From NCBI GenBank assembly GCA_965226495.1, contig OZ245365.1, forward strand, positions 1,504,001 to 1,568,000: 64,000 bases of DNA. Direction: 5' to 3'. The notes beneath the pieces are model-generated. The model was not told the origin of the DNA and made no database searches. It saw nothing but the letters and a program-made list of their open reading frames with translations. The DNA comes from Candidatus Marinacidobacterales bacterium. GTDB taxonomy: Bacteria > Acidobacteriota > Vicinamibacteria > Marinacidobacterales > DATDRI01. Below are positions 23,148 to 26,923 of the stretch, one piece after another; within the stretch, counting starts at the first letter, position 1, and the number at the start of each line of letters is the position of its first letter. A program made the translations under genes and the position numbers.

Positions 23148-24881
23148 TCAGACGCGTCGCACGACGATCAGCGTTCGGTCGTCGGTGGGACGACCCGTTG
23201 CATAGGCATCGACTTCTTGCTGGATGGTTACCATCATCTCCGGCGCTGAGAGCTTGGCGTGGTTTTTCAACACCTCCGCTAAGCGGTCCTCACCGTATTC
23301 CTCGCCGTCTTCTCCCCAGCTTTCACTGATGCCGTCGGTGAAAACCACTAGTATGTCGCCGGGTTCGAGCGTGGTCTCGCCTTGCTCGTACGGTACGCTC
23401 TCGAACATCTCGACAACGGTGCCGCCTACTTCCAGCCGGTCGGCCTCGCCAGACTTCGCCCGATAGACAATGGGCGGTATGTGGCCTGCATTGACGTAAA
23501 GTAGTTCGCCGGTCTTGGGGTCGAGATCGCCGAGGAAGAACGTCACATATGCATGTTCTGGCGTGTTGTGGAACATCACTTGGTTGGTGTGAGACATGAT
23601 AGACGCCATGTCGTTCTCTTCCTGCTGGCATGCGGAATGAACGGTGGCCCTCAAAACCATCATCATTAGAGCTGCCCCGGCGCCTTTCCCCGAGACGTCG
23701 CCGAGCGCGAAAGCGAGGCGGCCAGAGGGCTTCGGGATGTAATCGAAGTAGTCGCCGCCGATCGTATAGCAGGGCGTATTCGTTCCCGCGATATCCCAAC
23801 CTTCGATTAGTGGAGCTTTGCTGGGAAGGAGGTTTTGCTGGATGTCGCCAGCGAGAGCGAGCTCATGCTCCATCCGCTTCTTCTCGATCATTTGCTCGAC
23901 CAGCTGGGCGTTCTCCAACTTGATTGCCGCGACGTTGGCCAAGGAAGTAAGAAGCGAGAGGTCGTCTTGAGTGAAAATGCTTTCTTGAATCAAGCGGTCG
24001 ACATAGATGAGGCCGGTGACCGCCTTGTTGTTCCAAAGTGGTACGCACATCGCGGAGCGGATACCGACGGAGACGATCGAATCTTGCGATTTGAATCTGG
24101 GGTCGCTCAGCGCGCTGCTGGTTAGGATGGAGACCTTTTCTCCAATTACTTTGTCGGCGATGGTGCGGCTGAAAGTGATCTCCTCCCTGGTTTCTTCGGG
24201 CTTGTCGGAGTTCGTGCGGACCGACTTGACTTCTAGACCGCCGCCGTCGTCCTTGGTTAACATCAACGCTCCGCGTTCCGGTTTCACGACCTTGAAGGCA
24301 AGCTCCAAGATGAAATCTAGCAGCTCGTTGACCGGTCGGTCGCTGATGAGGGCCATACTGGCTTCGCTGAGGGCGGCCAAGATCTGGTTCTGTTTGATGA
24401 TTGCGGACGAATCGGTGGAGCCCGTTTTGGGCCCCGACCGCTTGGTGGGTCCGGCGACGTTATCCCAGGTGTCCTCTTGCCCGCGGGCCTGAGCCAACAG
24501 GTGTTCGGTCGGAACCACTACGGTGCCATCGAGGTCGAGGTCACTGCTCGGGCTTTCTTCGAGCCGGACGCTGCCCGAAGGCTCCTGCATAAAGGTCAAT
24601 TGGTGATCGCCTAGGGTGATGGTGTCTTCGTCGTCGAGCCGCGCCTTGTCGGCGATACGACTACCGTTGACCAGCGTGCCATTCCGGCTCTCCAGGTCGT
24701 GGATGGAGTACGCGTCGCTTTCTTCGCGAATCTCGGCGTGGTGGCGCGACAGCCACTGGTCGGGCAAGACGAGGTCGTTACGCTTTGAGCGGCCTATTGT
24801 GAGGACCGGCTTGTTAAGGGGCACGGTAAACGGCTCCCCGTGCAGGGGACGAACCCGCAACTCGGGGAATTTTTTTGTCAC
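23148..24881 (-). CDS. FHA-GAF-PP2C (SpoIIE-like) serine/threonine phosphatase
   Basis: IGRS..ND...SR.HA..S.NGT (FHA); IRSAMCVPL..GLIYVD (GAF); GGDYFD, DVSGKG, FTDGI and DDRT (PP2C). Start uncertain (GTG 24881 or ATG 24929). Confidence 0.93.
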   Translation of the reverse strand: MTKKFPELRVRPLHGEPFTVPLNKPVLTIGRSKRNDLVLPDQWLSRHHAEIREESDAYSIHDLESRNGTLVNGSRIADKARLDDEDTITLGDHQLTFMQEPSGSVRLEESPSSDLDLDGTVVVPTEHLLAQARGQEDTWDNVAGPTKRSGPKTGSTDSSAIIKQNQILAALSEASMALISDRPVNELLDFILELAFKVVKPERGALMLTKDDGGGLEVKSVRTNSDKPEETREEITFSRTIADKVIGEKVSILTSSALSDPRFKSQDSIVSVGIRSAMCVPLWNNKAVTGLIYVDRLIQESIFTQDDLSLLTSLANVAAIKLENAQLVEQMIEKKRMEHELALAGDIQQNLLPSKAPLIEGWDIAGTNTPCYTIGGDYFDYIPKPSGRLAFALGDVSGKGAGAALMMMVLRATVHSACQQEENDMASIMSHTNQVMFHNTPEHAYVTFFLGDLDPKTGELLYVNAGHIPPIVYRAKSGEADRLEVGGTVVEMFESVPYEQGETTLEPGDILVVFTDGISESWGEDGEEYGEDRLAEVLKNHAKLSAPEMMVTIQQEVDAYATGRPTDDRTLIVVRRV

Positions 24882-25267
24882 CAATAAGGCTACTCTCTCG
24901 AAGGTCGGGCTATTGAGCCACGCAGTCATTGATTCATTGAGTCAATGAATGGCCAGAAACAATTATAAGTAACACTGGCCTTCGGTTGCTGTCAAGACGC
25001 TGCAATTCCAGATGGTTAACCCGAGTGCTCGATGGGCGTGGTGAGCCGGCGCTCGGAAGGGAGCGGCCGTCGATCAGTACAGGTGGTGCAGACCGTGGAG
25101 CAGGTGGGGGCTTACTCTCTTCCTGGCTTTAGGTTGCGGTGGGATTTTAGGGTGCGTGGATGATGAAGCGGGATAGGGAGAATGCCGAAACCTTGGCGTC
25201 CCCTATTGATGGCCATGTGTTTCCCTTAAGAATAAACCCCCGTCCTGCACGAATCTCCGCCTAGTGA

Positions 25268-25298
25268 CCCTCTCCCGGAGGGAGAGGGATTAAAGGAA
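25268..25298. repeat. REP-like family member
   Basis: CCCTCTCCCGGAGGGAGAGGGATTAAAGGAA. Confidence 0.75.
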
Positions 25299-25324
25299 CA
25301 AGAGTCCACTATTATCGTGCCGTG

Positions 25325-25519
25325 AAAAGGAGCCCAAGAGAGACCTGGCTTGGCCATCGCAGCCTCTCAGTGGAGGGCCAGCGGATGCCTCTGAGAGGGC
25401 TCAGCGTCCCACGATCGGGAGCGGCCAGTTTCTATCCGGAGGTAGGACCCCAGGTCTCCCCCGAGCTTGCCGACTTTCCACCGGCATCGCTGCCGGCAGT
25501 CGCTCAGCTTCCCTTCGCC
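25325..25519 (-). ncRNA. candidate sigma54-dependent structured RNA of about 190 nt
   Basis: 18-bp closing stem 25331-25348/25450-25467 whose four non-Watson-Crick pairs are G-U only on the minus strand; GCGA (GNRA) hairpin at 25472-25501; nested inner helices; a U4 tract after the stem. Confidence 0.6.
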
Positions 25520-25529
25520 TCACATGAGA

Positions 25530-25546
25530 GGCAAAGGCTGTTCCAG
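25530..25546 (-). promoter_or_regulatory. sigma54 (-24/-12) promoter
   Basis: Minus strand CTGGAACAGCCTTTGCC has GG-10 nt-GC spacing; AT-rich IHF-like tract at about 25573-25596. Confidence 0.6.
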
Positions 25547-25732
25547 GAAGATCCGTCAAGTGACCCGTCACGTTTTATTGATAACAAAGGGTTTTCGCCC
25601 GCAACTTAGAGAAGGGGAGATCTGGCTCCTTTGGCATTTGGGCGTAGCCGCGCACTCCGCTGAGCCTAATGCCGCAGAATCGGGCGGGAGAGTGAAGGGG
25701 TGTTGTGGGCCGACCGCTTGGAGGGAACGACT

Positions 25733-26923
25733 TCAGGAAGACTTGGGTGACGTCGGCTCACTTTCAGTTGAGTCGCCGCTCAGCTCGGGGGTCAATTCCG
25801 GGGTTGGCTCTGGTGTTATGTTTTCCGTCGGTTCTTTCTCTGCAGGCTCTGCAGGCTCTGCAGGCGGTCCGGGCGATTCGTCACTTGTTGGTTCACCAAC
25901 TGGTGGCGTCGATAGGTCCGTCGCGGAAGGCTCTGGAGAATTGGGAGCCGTCTCGACTTCGGGGGTCTGCGGCGCGTCCTCACCATCTTCAGTGACGTCA
26001 AGAGTAGGCGTATCGGGAGTAGCGGGCCCCGCAATTTCATCTGCGGCTTGATGTGCCGCAGGCTGTTCTTCTTCTGGTTTTGGCTCTGGTACTGGCTCCG
26101 TCGCCACATCTCCCACTGCATCTTGATTTGTTTGTTCGACTGGGAGTGTTAAAACAGGCGTCTCAATAATAACGGGGGCAACGGGGGTGCCGGGAGTAAT
26201 GGCAGCGTTCTCGATCGGCGCCGGCATTACCGGAGTTCCGCCTTCGTCCTCGCTCACTCCTGCCGCGGCGGTCGAGGAAGCTTCCTCCTCTTCTTCCTTC
26301 GCGTTCAAAGCCGCGTCTTCGGCTGCCTTTTGCGCCTTGACCTGGCGCCTTCTCTCCTTCGCCTCTTCCCGTTCCTTGCGGCGATGGGTGTTCATCGCCT
26401 CTTGTAGGATTCGGGTGATAAGAGCCTGTGCCTCGGCCCGCGTGCAGTCCTTGGAAAGCGCAACCTCCGCGGCCAGCCAGCTACGGATCTTTCGGCGACT
26501 CTGCTCGTCTTCTCGACTCAGCCCAGTTGTTTGCCTAAGGAGATGAAGTCGTTTCAATCCTTTCGCCAAGGCGCGTGGGGACCCCTCACTCACGAGATTT
26601 TCGATCAGGCCCTCCAGCTCTTTTTCCTCCTCCAGAGGCTGCTCGAACTCGGCAGCGAGCTCGGCTTCAATCTCTTCGAGTTTCCTGCCGGCGGGCCGGA
26701 GTCCAAGCTTAGGTACACGCTCCGTAGGGATAAGAATCCGGCTGCCCTCCTCGAGGTCCTCCAGTTCGACGAGCCTCTTCCCAGGGGCGGCCCGGTCCTC
26801 GGTGAGTCCCCGATAGACGCAATGTCCGACTTTTGGATAAAAAACAGGCTCGCCCGGTTCAGGAAGCCCGGCAAGGGTGGGATCACCTTGATCCACGAGC
26901 ACCTCCTTTTCGCCCATAAACAT
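25733..26923 (-). CDS. divergent CarD-family protein with a coiled coil and a long acidic Pro/Glu-rich tail
   Basis: PGEPVFYPKVGHC...ILIPTERVPKLGLRP resembles the CarD RID; GS...LAK.LKRL...LS..D....RK.R..LA.EVAL resembles the CarD CTD. Confidence 0.8.
   Translation of the reverse strand: MFMGEKEVLVDQGDPTLAGLPEPGEPVFYPKVGHCVYRGLTEDRAAPGKRLVELEDLEEGSRILIPTERVPKLGLRPAGRKLEEIEAELAAEFEQPLEEEKELEGLIENLVSEGSPRALAKGLKRLHLLRQTTGLSREDEQSRRKIRSWLAAEVALSKDCTRAEAQALITRILQEAMNTHRRKEREEAKERRRQVKAQKAAEDAALNAKEEEEEASSTAAAGVSEDEGGTPVMPAPIENAAITPGTPVAPVIIETPVLTLPVEQTNQDAVGDVATEPVPEPKPEEEQPAAHQAADEIAGPATPDTPTLDVTEDGEDAPQTPEVETAPNSPEPSATDLSTPPVGEPTSDESPGPPAEPAEPAEKEPTENITPEPTPELTPELSGDSTESEPTSPKSS

What the first reader, a model, noticed from the sequence alone, without database searches (positions are those of the whole stretch)
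25325..25596. Unannotated sigma54-dependent structured RNA (about 190 nt)
CTGGAACAGCCTTTGCC has exact GG-N10-GC spacing and an AT-rich IHF-like tract upstream, but no convincing ORF follows. The predicted transcript begins with a 9-bp hairpin capped by a GCGA GNRA loop. It then forms a multibranch domain (UGGCC/GGCCA, UCCC/GGGA, CUCUCAG/CUGAGAG) closed by an 18-bp stem followed by UUUU. All four non-Watson-Crick pairs in that stem are G-U on the minus strand and A-C on the plus strand, which points to selection on RNA structure in the promoter's direction. I could not match it to any riboswitch or ribozyme I know. Sigma54-driven sRNAs are known (for example Qrr, GlmY and Pxr) but are few.
Basis: partly seen in the sequence, partly recalled or inferred. 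Interest (0 to 1): 0.75.

Follow-up and report, generated by a model that had tools for sequence, protein, structure and literature searches.

The report
New sigma-54-driven structured small RNA
Between two regulatory genes of a marine-sediment acidobacterium lies a gene for a folded, non-coding RNA of about 195 bases with a conserved sigma-54 promoter; it matches no catalogued RNA family and its job is still unknown.

Summary

- **Promoter.** Window 25545-25531 (minus strand) carries TGGAAC-N5-TTTGC. This motif is kept in all 10 homologous loci, although the flanks diverge.
- **Fold.** The RNA behind it folds into six helices. On 9 distinct sequences, 95.1% of pair cells are standard pairs, against 35-51% in slid controls, and 10 pairs show compensatory changes.
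- **Strand.** There are 51 G-U cells against 7 A-C cells, which fixes the minus strand.
- **Non-coding and single-copy.** No ORF is conserved and indels are 1-2 nt. There is one copy in the genome, no Rfam 15 match, and no phage or plasmid match.
- **Distribution.** It always follows a CarD-like gene. It was found only in one family of Vicinamibacteria (4 of 5 genera), and is missing, promoter included, from both same-genus genomes searched.
- **RNA libraries.** Close relatives turn up in metatranscriptome contigs from four studies. Those contigs run past the proposed terminator, so the 3' end near 25325 is not established.
- **Function.** Unknown. My best guess is a trans-acting regulatory RNA that uses its invariant C-rich loop CUGGCCCUCC. 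Y-RNA and CsrB-like roles are unlikely, because the genome lacks Rsr and CsrA. A leader role for the downstream phosphatase gene is unlikely, because in one genome the two lie about 300 kb apart.

It is a new RNA family of a known kind.

The parts
25572..25588 (-). AT-rich tract about 40-55 nt upstream of the -24 element; possible IHF-type bending site (inferred only)
   Evidence: Sequence. A TCAA core at the same distance is kept in the 9 aligned homologues. The IHF consensus is recalled, not tested.
25530..25545 (-). Sigma-54-type promoter TGGAACAGCCTTTGCC (GG 25544-25543, GC 25532-25531)
   Evidence: TGGAAY-N5-YTTGC is kept in 9 of 9 aligned homologues while the flanks diverge, and in the diverged G005 variant. 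It is one of 66 such sites in the genome.
25325..25519 (-). Conserved structured RNA core. The 5' end is predicted from promoter geometry; the 3' end is uncertain.
   Evidence: Covariance-model hits of 176-216 bits in 3 relatives' genomes and 8 metagenome loci. Structure statistics.
25478..25499 (-). P2: 9-bp hairpin with GCGA loop
   Evidence: The corresponding helix 1 has 8 scored pairs. Three of them carry compensatory changes and 98.6% of cells are paired.
25450..25467 (-). P3 5' arm (18-bp stem in the window)
   Evidence: Helix 2: 19 pairs, 3 compensatory, 8 changed on one side, 91.8% of cells paired.
25331..25348 (-). P3 3' arm, followed by CCUUUUC
   Evidence: Its four wobble pairs are G-U on this strand.
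25428..25449 (-). J3/4: 22-nt unpaired strand holding the invariant UCCGGA (25440-25435) and a CCUCC motif
   Evidence: Invariant columns.
25422..25427 (-). P4 5' arm UGGCCG, pairs with 25356-25351
   Evidence: Helix 3: 6 pairs, 100% of cells paired, 1 compensatory.
25351..25356 (-). P4 3' arm UGGCCA
25407..25420 (-). P5: hairpin UCCCG-AUCG-UGGGA
   Evidence: Helix 4: 5 pairs, 100% paired, no compensatory change, so conserved but uninformative.
25358..25406 (-). P6: long hairpin. Its apical part holds the invariant CUGGCCCUCC (25381-25372).
   Evidence: Helices 5 and 6: 16 pairs, 3 compensatory. The loop is invariant in 9 of 9 sequences. CGCUGGCCCC is kept in the G005 variant.
25100..25324 (-). 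Lineage-specific 3' extension, shared only with the 89%-identical relative L077. It is contiguous with the core in RNA-library contigs of relatives.
   Evidence: It is absent, together with the core, from same-genus G001 and G002.

Best explanation
This is a stand-alone gene for a structured non-coding RNA. The conserved core is about 195 nt on the window's minus strand.

Transcription is inferred to start from a sigma-54 promoter. It would therefore be switched on only when one of the cell's enhancer-binding proteins is activated, most likely an NtrC-type response regulator.

Shown:
- a conserved promoter motif;
- a conserved six-helix fold with covariation;
- the strand;
- no coding potential;
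- a single copy;
- a fixed position after a CarD-like gene;
- restriction to one family of Vicinamibacteria.

Inferred: the RNA acts in trans as a regulator. Its contact surfaces would be the invariant unpaired segments, namely the apical loop CUGCUGGCCCUCC-type sequence of P6 and the UCCGGA/CCUCC strand J3/4. These C-rich, anti-Shine-Dalgarno-like sequences would pair with GGAGG-containing ribosome-binding sites of mRNAs, possibly with Hfq, or else dock a protein.

I put about 0.85 on 'sigma-54-driven structured ncRNA gene' and about 0.4 on the trans base-pairing mechanism.
For: Promoter
- TGGAAY-N5-YTTGC is kept in 9 of 9 aligned homologues amid diverged flanks, and in the G005 variant.
- rpoN is present in one copy. 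Twenty matches to the sigma-54 activator domain score 159 bits or more.

Fold
- 54 pairs were scored. 95.1% of 485 cells are paired, against 35-51% when partners are slid.
- 10 pairs carry compensatory changes, against 4.9 +/- 1.6 in shuffles (1 of 500 reach the observed value).
- Covariation score is 0.233 against 0.176 (0 of 500).
- Without the unpublished genome G007, the figures are 94.4% paired and 9 compensatory pairs.

Strand
- 51 G-U/U-G against 7 A-C/C-A cells.
- Folding z = -2.59 on the minus strand against -0.06 on the plus strand.

Not coding.

Autonomy from neighbouring genes
- In G003 the RNA and promoter are intact, but the next 8 kb downstream hold DruA-like, IS66 and DDE-transposase genes.
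- The phosphatase orthologue of G003 lies about 300 kb away.

Other support
- Hfq is present.
- Contigs 90-99% alike to the core occur in 4 of 4 laid metatranscriptome runs from 4 studies. One contig has depth 111.
Against: - No transcript end was mapped, and contigs cannot show strand or ends.
- No target was found. The 10-mer complement of the loop occurs 17 times elsewhere in the genome, 4 of them near ORF starts. The best of these, a 783-aa secreted peptidase-like gene, has no orthologue in three RNA-bearing genomes.
- No enhancer site or specific activator was identified. None of the 7 enhancer-binding proteins shared by RNA-bearing genomes is missing from both RNA-less genomes.
- A six-helix fold with invariant junctions is more elaborate than most base-pairing sRNAs. 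This favours the protein- or ligand-binding rival.
Confidence: 0.55

Rival explanations
1. The RNA is a protein- or ligand-binding structured RNA: a ribonucleoprotein component, a sponge, or an orphan riboswitch-like sensor. It would not be a base-pairing sRNA. The invariant junction and loop nucleotides would form a tertiary pocket or a protein-docking site.
For: - The architecture has six helices and two multi-helix junctions.
- Invariant nucleotides concentrate in J3/4, P4, P5 and the P6 loop.
- A GNRA cap on P2 is seen in 7 of 10 distinct sequences (my reading).
- The RNA is dispensable within a genus, as accessory RNPs can be.
Against: - No partner is indicated. The Rsr/TROVE domain is absent and CsrA is absent.
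- No conserved neighbouring gene other than the CarD-like gene.
- No Rfam riboswitch or ribozyme matches.
- The diverged G005 variant lacks P5 and J3/4 as such. A strict tertiary core is therefore not conserved across the whole family.
Confidence: 0.2
2. The RNA is a cis-acting leader. Sigma-54-driven transcription would read through the P3 stem into the downstream FHA-GAF-PP2C (SpoIIE-type) phosphatase gene, and the fold would tune termination.
For: - The phosphatase gene lies downstream on the same strand. Pfam shows this in the window and in G007. In L077, L054, L059, L073 and L071 I recognised it only by a conserved coding-sequence anchor, and in G006 by reading the sequence printed. That is my reading, not a Pfam result.
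- The U-tract after P3 is weak and not conserved.
- RNA-library contigs bridge the proposed terminator and continue for 130 nt or more.
Against: - In G003 the RNA is intact while the phosphatase gene is about 300 kb away.
- The phosphatase gene has its own conserved TTGACA...TAnAAT-like promoter and leader between it and the RNA (my reading of the sequences).
- Same-genus G001 and G002 keep the phosphatase gene and that promoter without the RNA.
- The 160-410-nt spacer is not conserved between genera.
Confidence: 0.12
3. The sigma-54-like motif is not the promoter. The RNA would be made from another promoter, or processed from the 3' UTR of the CarD-like mRNA.
For: - The RNA always follows the CarD-like gene on the same strand.
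- No transcription start has been mapped.
- The one contig end seen lies 12 nt downstream of the predicted +1 (reported under Tried and rejected).
Against: - The -24/-12 motif is the best-conserved block of the upstream 250 nt, and it sits at a fixed distance from the fold in 10 of 10 loci.
- No sigma-70-like promoter was found in 24850-25800.
- In same-genus G002 the motif has decayed to CGGCGAGCCCCTTGCG where the RNA is missing (my reading).
Confidence: 0.08
4. The region encodes a small protein: the 28-codon ORF inside the RNA, or the antisense ORF of about 65 codons.
For: - A 28-codon ORF runs from 25487 to 25401 on the minus strand.
- Open antisense frames of 64-66 codons occur in 5 of 9 sequences.
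Against: - The 28-codon ORF is absent from 8 of 9 homologues, including the 89%-identical L077.
- The antisense frames change register between homologues.
- All internal indels are 1-3 nt, and only one is 3 nt.
- Variable columns by codon phase are 36/36/35.
Confidence: 0.02

Closest known systems
Qrr1-5 (Vibrio; LuxO/sigma-54-dependent Hfq sRNAs)
   Same: - An independent sRNA gene behind a -24/-12 promoter.
- Presumably activated by an NtrC-type response regulator.
- Hfq is present in the host.
- A conserved unpaired segment is the candidate seed.
The LuxO-Qrr biology is recalled; I saw only the search listings of PMC4878744 and PMC11407668.
   Different: - No sequence or structure match to any Rfam family.
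- About twice as long, with six helices and two junctions rather than four simple hairpins.
- Single copy.
- Acidobacteriota, not Gammaproteobacteria.
GlmY / CrcZ / NrsZ / Pxr (other sigma-54-dependent sRNAs)
   Same: - Sigma-54 promoter in front of a non-coding RNA.
- GlmY and CrcZ act by sequestering proteins, which is one of the rival readings here.
These names and mechanisms are recalled. For CbrB/CrcZ I saw only the listings of PMC8871633 and PMC6296734.
   Different: - No homology.
- No A-rich Hfq/Crc motifs are evident.
- The genome has no CsrA.
- The activator is unknown.
Bacterial Y RNAs (YrlA/YrlB, in the sigma-54/RtcR-controlled rsr-rtcBA operon of Salmonella)
   Same: - Sigma-54-linked.
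- A structured RNA of roughly 100-200 nt with a long stem enclosing a multi-branch module.
This is recalled. The listing of PMC9879122 mentions RtcR and the RNA repair operon.
   Different: - No TROVE/Rsr protein in the genome (0 matches).
- No rtc genes adjacent.
- No Rfam Y-RNA match.
Acido-1 (RF01686) and Acido-Lenti-1 (RF01687) motifs
   Same: Orphan non-coding RNA motifs known from Acidobacteria. I read passages of PMC2864571.
   Different: Both are in Rfam. Neither is among the matches at E<=10 in 24900-26000.

Membership tests
Sigma-54 (RpoN)-dependent promoter | GG and GC doublets exactly 10 nt apart, in a TGGCAC-N5-TTGCW-like context (consensus recalled) | tested here: met
   TGGAACAGCCTTTGCC at 25545-25530. 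The same motif is present in 10 of 10 homologous loci.
Sigma-54 (RpoN)-dependent promoter | The host encodes RpoN and enhancer-binding ATPases | tested here: met
   One Sigma54_DBD match of 216 bits. Twenty strong Sigma54_activat matches.
Sigma-54 (RpoN)-dependent promoter | An upstream activator (enhancer) site and a cognate enhancer-binding protein | tested here: inconclusive
   - No conserved inverted repeat specific to RNA-bearing loci was seen by eye.
- Of the 20 enhancer-binding proteins in G000, 7 have reciprocal best hits in both RNA-bearing G003 and G006 (49 proteins of G001, G002, G003 and G006 were fetched for the comparison).
- None of the 7 is absent from both RNA-less genomes.
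- Six of the 7 are REC-AAA+-HTH_8 or REC-AAA+ proteins, and one is AAA+-HTH_8 only.
- G005's 28 proteins were not fetched.
Sigma-54 (RpoN)-dependent promoter | Transcription start about 12 nt downstream of GC, dependent on rpoN | not testable with these tools
   Only contigs were available, with no raw reads.
Any Rfam 15 family (4227 models, including riboswitches, ribozymes, 6S, Y RNA, Qrr, GlmY, Acido-1) | Covariance-model score at or above the family's gathering threshold | tested here: not met
   0 matches over the 64-kb window. The best match at E<=10 within the RNA is 15 bits against an 82-bit threshold, to a microRNA model on the opposite strand.
Structured non-coding RNA (generic) | A fold conserved through compensatory changes, with no coding signal | tested here: met
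Rho-independent terminator at the 3' end | GC-rich stem directly followed by a U-run, conserved | tested here: inconclusive
   - The window has UUUU two bases after P3.
- Homologues have UUUCCCAUUCUU, GUUUUCC or UUCCCAUUAAAAA.
- The scan result is at chance level.
- Contigs in RNA libraries bridge the site.
Y RNA / Rsr RNP | A Ro60/Rsr (TROVE) protein in the genome | tested here: not met
   0 matches in a genome that is 94.8% complete. The control genomes gave positive matches.
CsrB/RsmZ-type sponge | CsrA/RsmA present in the genome | tested here: not met
   0 CsrA matches.
Hfq-dependent base-pairing sRNA | Hfq present; Hfq binding and seed pairing with targets | tested here: inconclusive
   Hfq is present at 94 bits. 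Binding is not testable here, and no conserved target was found.

The most novel reading that the evidence does not exclude
This is the first member of a new class of complex-folded regulatory RNA in Acidobacteriota. It would be produced only on a sigma-54/two-component signal. Its invariant loop and junction would bind a protein or small molecule rather than an mRNA. The partner might be linked to the transcription factor (CarD-like) or to the Ser/Thr-signalling phosphatase between which it has stayed for the whole history of the family.
Probability: 0.2. Interest if true: 0.7.

Novelty: new member of a known kind. Interest (0 to 1): 0.55.

Why it matters
- **Few sigma-54 sRNAs are known.** Those known come almost entirely from Proteobacteria and Myxococcus (recalled). 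Regulatory RNAs of Acidobacteriota, a dominant soil and sediment phylum, are essentially uncharted. My searches found no paper that describes one like this.
- **It is ready for study.** The RNA has a clear promoter class, a covariation-supported fold, and natural 'knock-out' relatives in the same genus.
- **It may be active in nature.** Close relatives appear in sediment and salt-marsh metatranscriptome libraries.
- **It is a tractable entry point** for asking what sigma-54 signalling controls post-transcriptionally in this phylum.
- **Limit.** The family is narrow and no function is known yet.

Tried and rejected
1. **Ends from RNA-library contigs.** No laid contig covers 25523-25700. One contig (X17, depth 111) stops at 25507 and is followed by sequencing-adapter letters. 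The other three stop, by their loose ends, at about 25480-25504. The stops differ between studies and contigs cannot show ends or strand, so I do not use them as evidence.
2. **A terminal helix between the purine-rich 5' leader and the pyrimidine-rich 3' tail.** It was suggested by single-sequence folds. Duplex energies are no better than shuffled tails in 10 of 10 sequences, with the fraction of shuffles at least as good ranging from 0.10 to 0.84. Not claimed.
3. **Target search with loop and J3/4 complements in the own genome.** Counts look like chance. The best candidate is not conserved.
4. **Whole-RNA duplexfold against the phosphatase leader (after a time-out).** Uninformative, because the method ignores intramolecular structure. 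A 9-nt loop complement (GCCAGCGGA) in that leader occurs only in G007 and L073, by eye.
5. **Enhancer-binding-protein phylogenetic profile.** It narrows 20 proteins to 7 but singles out none.
6. **Wider homologues.**
   - BLASTN in 61 genomes: G053 gave a 25-nt match at E = 0.005, which the covariance model did not confirm.
   - Model R1 in 55 genomes of the order and 151 of the class: only the four known carriers. Five other matches scored 17-20.5 bits and I take them as noise.
   - R1 also misses the diverged G005 variant, so its reach is limited.
   - Of the 58 metagenome stretches from the pattern scan, 50 were chance matches.
7. **The 34-codon ORF at 25112-25216 in the 3' extension.** By my hand count from the sequences printed, the window and L077 differ at 10 sites, 8 of them non-synonymous. 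No coding constraint.
8. **Y RNA, CsrB-like sponge, mobile repeat, phage or plasmid origin.** Rejected.
9. **Earlier notes of this scan.** Nothing was returned.

Full report
**What is in the sequence**

Read on the minus strand, the 800-nt gap between two genes holds the features below. The upstream gene is a CarD-like ORF (25733-26923). The downstream gene is an FHA-GAF-SpoIIE/PP2C phosphatase ORF (23148-24929).

- An AT-rich tract at about 25588-25572.
- TGGAACAGCCTTTGCC at 25545-25530, with GG and GC exactly 10 nt apart.
- A 9-bp hairpin capped by GCGA, at 25499-25478.
- An 18-bp stem, 25467-25450 with 25348-25331. It encloses a 22-nt single strand, a 6-bp helix (UGGCCG/UGGCCA), a 5-bp hairpin (UCCCG/UGGGA) and a long hairpin (25406-25358).
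- CCUUUUC after the stem.
- The four non-canonical pairs of the 18-bp stem are all G-U on this strand.

**More than chance**

- The minus strand folds to -99.5 kcal/mol, z = -2.59. The plus strand gives -80.8 kcal/mol, z = -0.06.
- A relaxed sigma-54 motif, TGG[ACT]A[CT]N5TTGC[ATC], occurs only 66 times on both strands of the 6.34-Mb genome.
- The genome has one rpoN and 20 strong sigma-54 activator domains.

**Not a known family, repeat or mobile element**

- Rfam 15 gives no match at gathering score anywhere in the window. At E<=10 in 24900-26000 there are only sub-threshold chance matches.
- The stretch is single-copy in its genome.
- It has no match among phage or plasmid records.
- Four literature searches found no description of it.
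- The two acidobacterial motifs of PMC2864571 (passages read) are Rfam families that did not match.

**Homologues**

- BLASTN in 61 related genomes found the 3' two-thirds of the RNA in G003, G006 and G007.
- A covariance model built from these four sequences (R1) scores them at 185-216 bits. It finds nothing else in 8 genomes of the family, 55 of the order or 151 of the class.
- A pattern scan of genome contigs returned three stretches. Their titles name Vicinamibacteria and 'Candidatus Marinacidobacterales' MAGs.
- A looser pattern in metagenome contigs returned 58 stretches. Eight of them are true hits at 176-208 bits.
- Together this makes 9 distinct sequences, 63-91% identical between lineages, plus an 89%-identical relative of the window, L077.
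- A tenth, diverged and shorter version sits at the same place in G005. It has the promoter TGGAACGGCTCTTGCA, a fold of -80.2 kcal/mol with z = -3.84, and the hairpin GCGAGG-AUCGCUGGCC-CCUCGC.
- G007 is an unpublished genome. It contributes one row to alignments A1-A3 and to R1.

**Promoter conservation**

In the alignment of the 260 nt upstream, TGGAA and TTGC are invariant in 9 of 9 sequences at a fixed distance from the fold. The rest of the region is poorly conserved. A TCAA core about 37 nt upstream of GG is also kept. This is weak support for a bending-protein site, which I did not test.

**Structure**

- One search scored 54 pairs in 6 helices. 95.1% of 485 cells are standard pairs, against 35-51% when 3' partners are slid by 1-3 columns.
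- 10 pairs carry compensatory changes, against 1-7 when slid and 4.9 +/- 1.6 when shuffled (1 of 500 shuffles reach 10).
- The covariation score is 0.233 against 0.176 (0 of 500).
- The sequences are related and few, so these controls overstate significance. Even so, helices 1, 2, 3, 5 and 6 each carry at least one double change. Helix 4 never co-varies.
- Without G007 the figures are 94.4% and 9 pairs.
- G-U/U-G cells outnumber A-C/C-A cells 51 to 7 of 486. This places the RNA on the window's minus strand.
- The invariant unpaired nucleotides are UCCGGA in the 22-nt strand and CUGGCCCUCC at the tip of the long hairpin.

**Not coding**

- The 28-codon ORF (25487-25401) exists only in the window.
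- Antisense frames of 64-66 codons are open in 5 of 9 sequences but shift register between them.
- Internal indels are 1-3 nt, nearly all 1-2.
- Variable columns fall 36/36/35 over the three phases.

**Context and distribution**

- A CarD-like gene precedes the RNA in every genome locus examined.
- CarD-like orthologues exist in 53 of 55 genomes of the order.
- Among 30 fetched loci, the promoter motif plus the loop motif follow the gene only in the 5 carriers of family f1. They follow it in 0 of 19 loci of family f2 and 0 of 4 loci of family f3.
- The two same-genus genomes G001 and G002 keep the CarD-like gene, the phosphatase gene and its own promoter. They lack the sigma-54 motif, the RNA and the 3' extension (R1 with filters off scores at most 8.9 bits).
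- G002 retains a decayed motif at the junction (my reading). Together with presence in 4 of 5 genera of the family, this suggests loss rather than gain.
- In G003 the RNA and promoter are intact, but the next 8 kb hold DruA-like, IS66 and DDE-transposase genes. The phosphatase orthologue lies about 300 kb away. The RNA therefore does not depend on that gene.

**RNA libraries**

- Fourteen runs hold the whole 501-nt stretch. Six metatranscriptome runs hold 8% of its words.
- Four of those six were laid. They come from four studies and are labelled salt marsh, marine sediment or sediment.
- Each gave one contig of 292-354 nt, 90-99% alike, that covers 25342-25461 (X17: 25326-25507, depth 111). 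Each contig also bridges the proposed 3' end into 25269-25200 and beyond.
- This shows that close relatives of the RNA are present in RNA libraries, and that the core is contiguous there with the lineage-specific 3' extension. It does not prove transcription, strand or ends.
- The terminator reading is therefore open. The scan result is at chance and the U-run is not conserved.

**Mechanism**

- Shown: the promoter class by sequence, the fold, the strand, non-coding status, autonomy from the phosphatase gene, and dispensability within a genus.
- Inferred: activation by an NtrC-type enhancer-binding protein. Of the 7 activators shared by RNA-bearing genomes, 6 carry a receiver domain.
- Also inferred: trans action through the invariant C-rich loop and strand. 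These resemble the anti-Shine-Dalgarno sequence and could pair with GGAGG sites. Hfq is present.
- Against this reading: I found no conserved target, and the elaborate fold also fits a protein- or ligand-binding RNA.
- Two specific versions of that rival are unlikely, because the genome has neither Rsr/TROVE nor CsrA.

**Verdict**

This is a real, conserved, sigma-54-type-promoter-driven structured RNA gene. It belongs to a new family restricted to one family of Vicinamibacteria. The kind (sigma-54-dependent sRNA) is known. The family, host phylum and architecture are new. The function is unknown.

Noticed in passing
window 25265-25288 (within 25270-25325): A perfect palindromic hairpin, CCCTCTCCC-TCC-GGGAGAGGG, sits in a stretch of about 56 nt. 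That stretch is missing from the 89%-identical relative L077 and is skipped by the RNA-library contigs. It is a recent small insertion or deletion just 3' of the RNA core.
   Followed up: partly
window 25112-25216 (-): A 34-codon ORF with an AAGGG box 6 nt upstream, in the 3' extension. By my hand count from the sequences, the window and L077 differ at 10 sites, 8 of them non-synonymous, so it is probably not coding.
   Followed up: partly
window about 24950-25000 (-), and the equivalent place in L054, L059, L014, L073, L016, L071, L083, L084, L085: A conserved TTGACAGC...GTGTTACTTATAAT-type promoter and a conserved leader precede the FHA-GAF-SpoIIE phosphatase gene. They are also present in genomes that lack the RNA. 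The simple sigma-70 scan missed this promoter, probably because of the spacer length.
   Followed up: no
window 25640-25690 (-): A conserved block after the CarD-like stop codon (GGCATTAGGCTCAG...GCTACGCCCAAATGCC). It has an inverted repeat GGCATT/AATGCC and is also present in RNA-less G001 and G002. It may be the terminator or 3' UTR element of the CarD-like gene.
   Followed up: no
window about 12946 (-) (genome 1516946): Another sigma-54-like site, TGGTACAGAGATTGCT, lies inside the window. Its context was not examined.
   Followed up: no
window 25733-26923 (-): The CarD-like protein carries a long Pro/Glu/Thr-rich C-terminal tail, making it 396 aa. The ORFs I scanned in relatives are 275, 328 and 295 aa. 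Pfam scores for both CarD domains are just below the curated cut-offs.
   Followed up: no
L172 701-7690 (G003): Directly downstream of the RNA in G003 lie a DruA-like gene, an IS66 TnpB fused in frame to a Ppx/GppA fragment, and a DDE transposase. The displaced phosphatase orthologue matches only residues 2-330 and carries an in-frame TGA, so it may be broken.
   Followed up: partly
L085 2326-2520 (G005): A shorter variant of the RNA, about 175 nt. It lacks the small P5 hairpin and has GGCAC/GUGCC in place of UGGCC/GGCCA. It keeps the promoter, the base of P3 (CCCGGAG/CUCCGGG), the apical loop and a UUCCCAUU tail. It would be useful for a broader model.
   Followed up: partly
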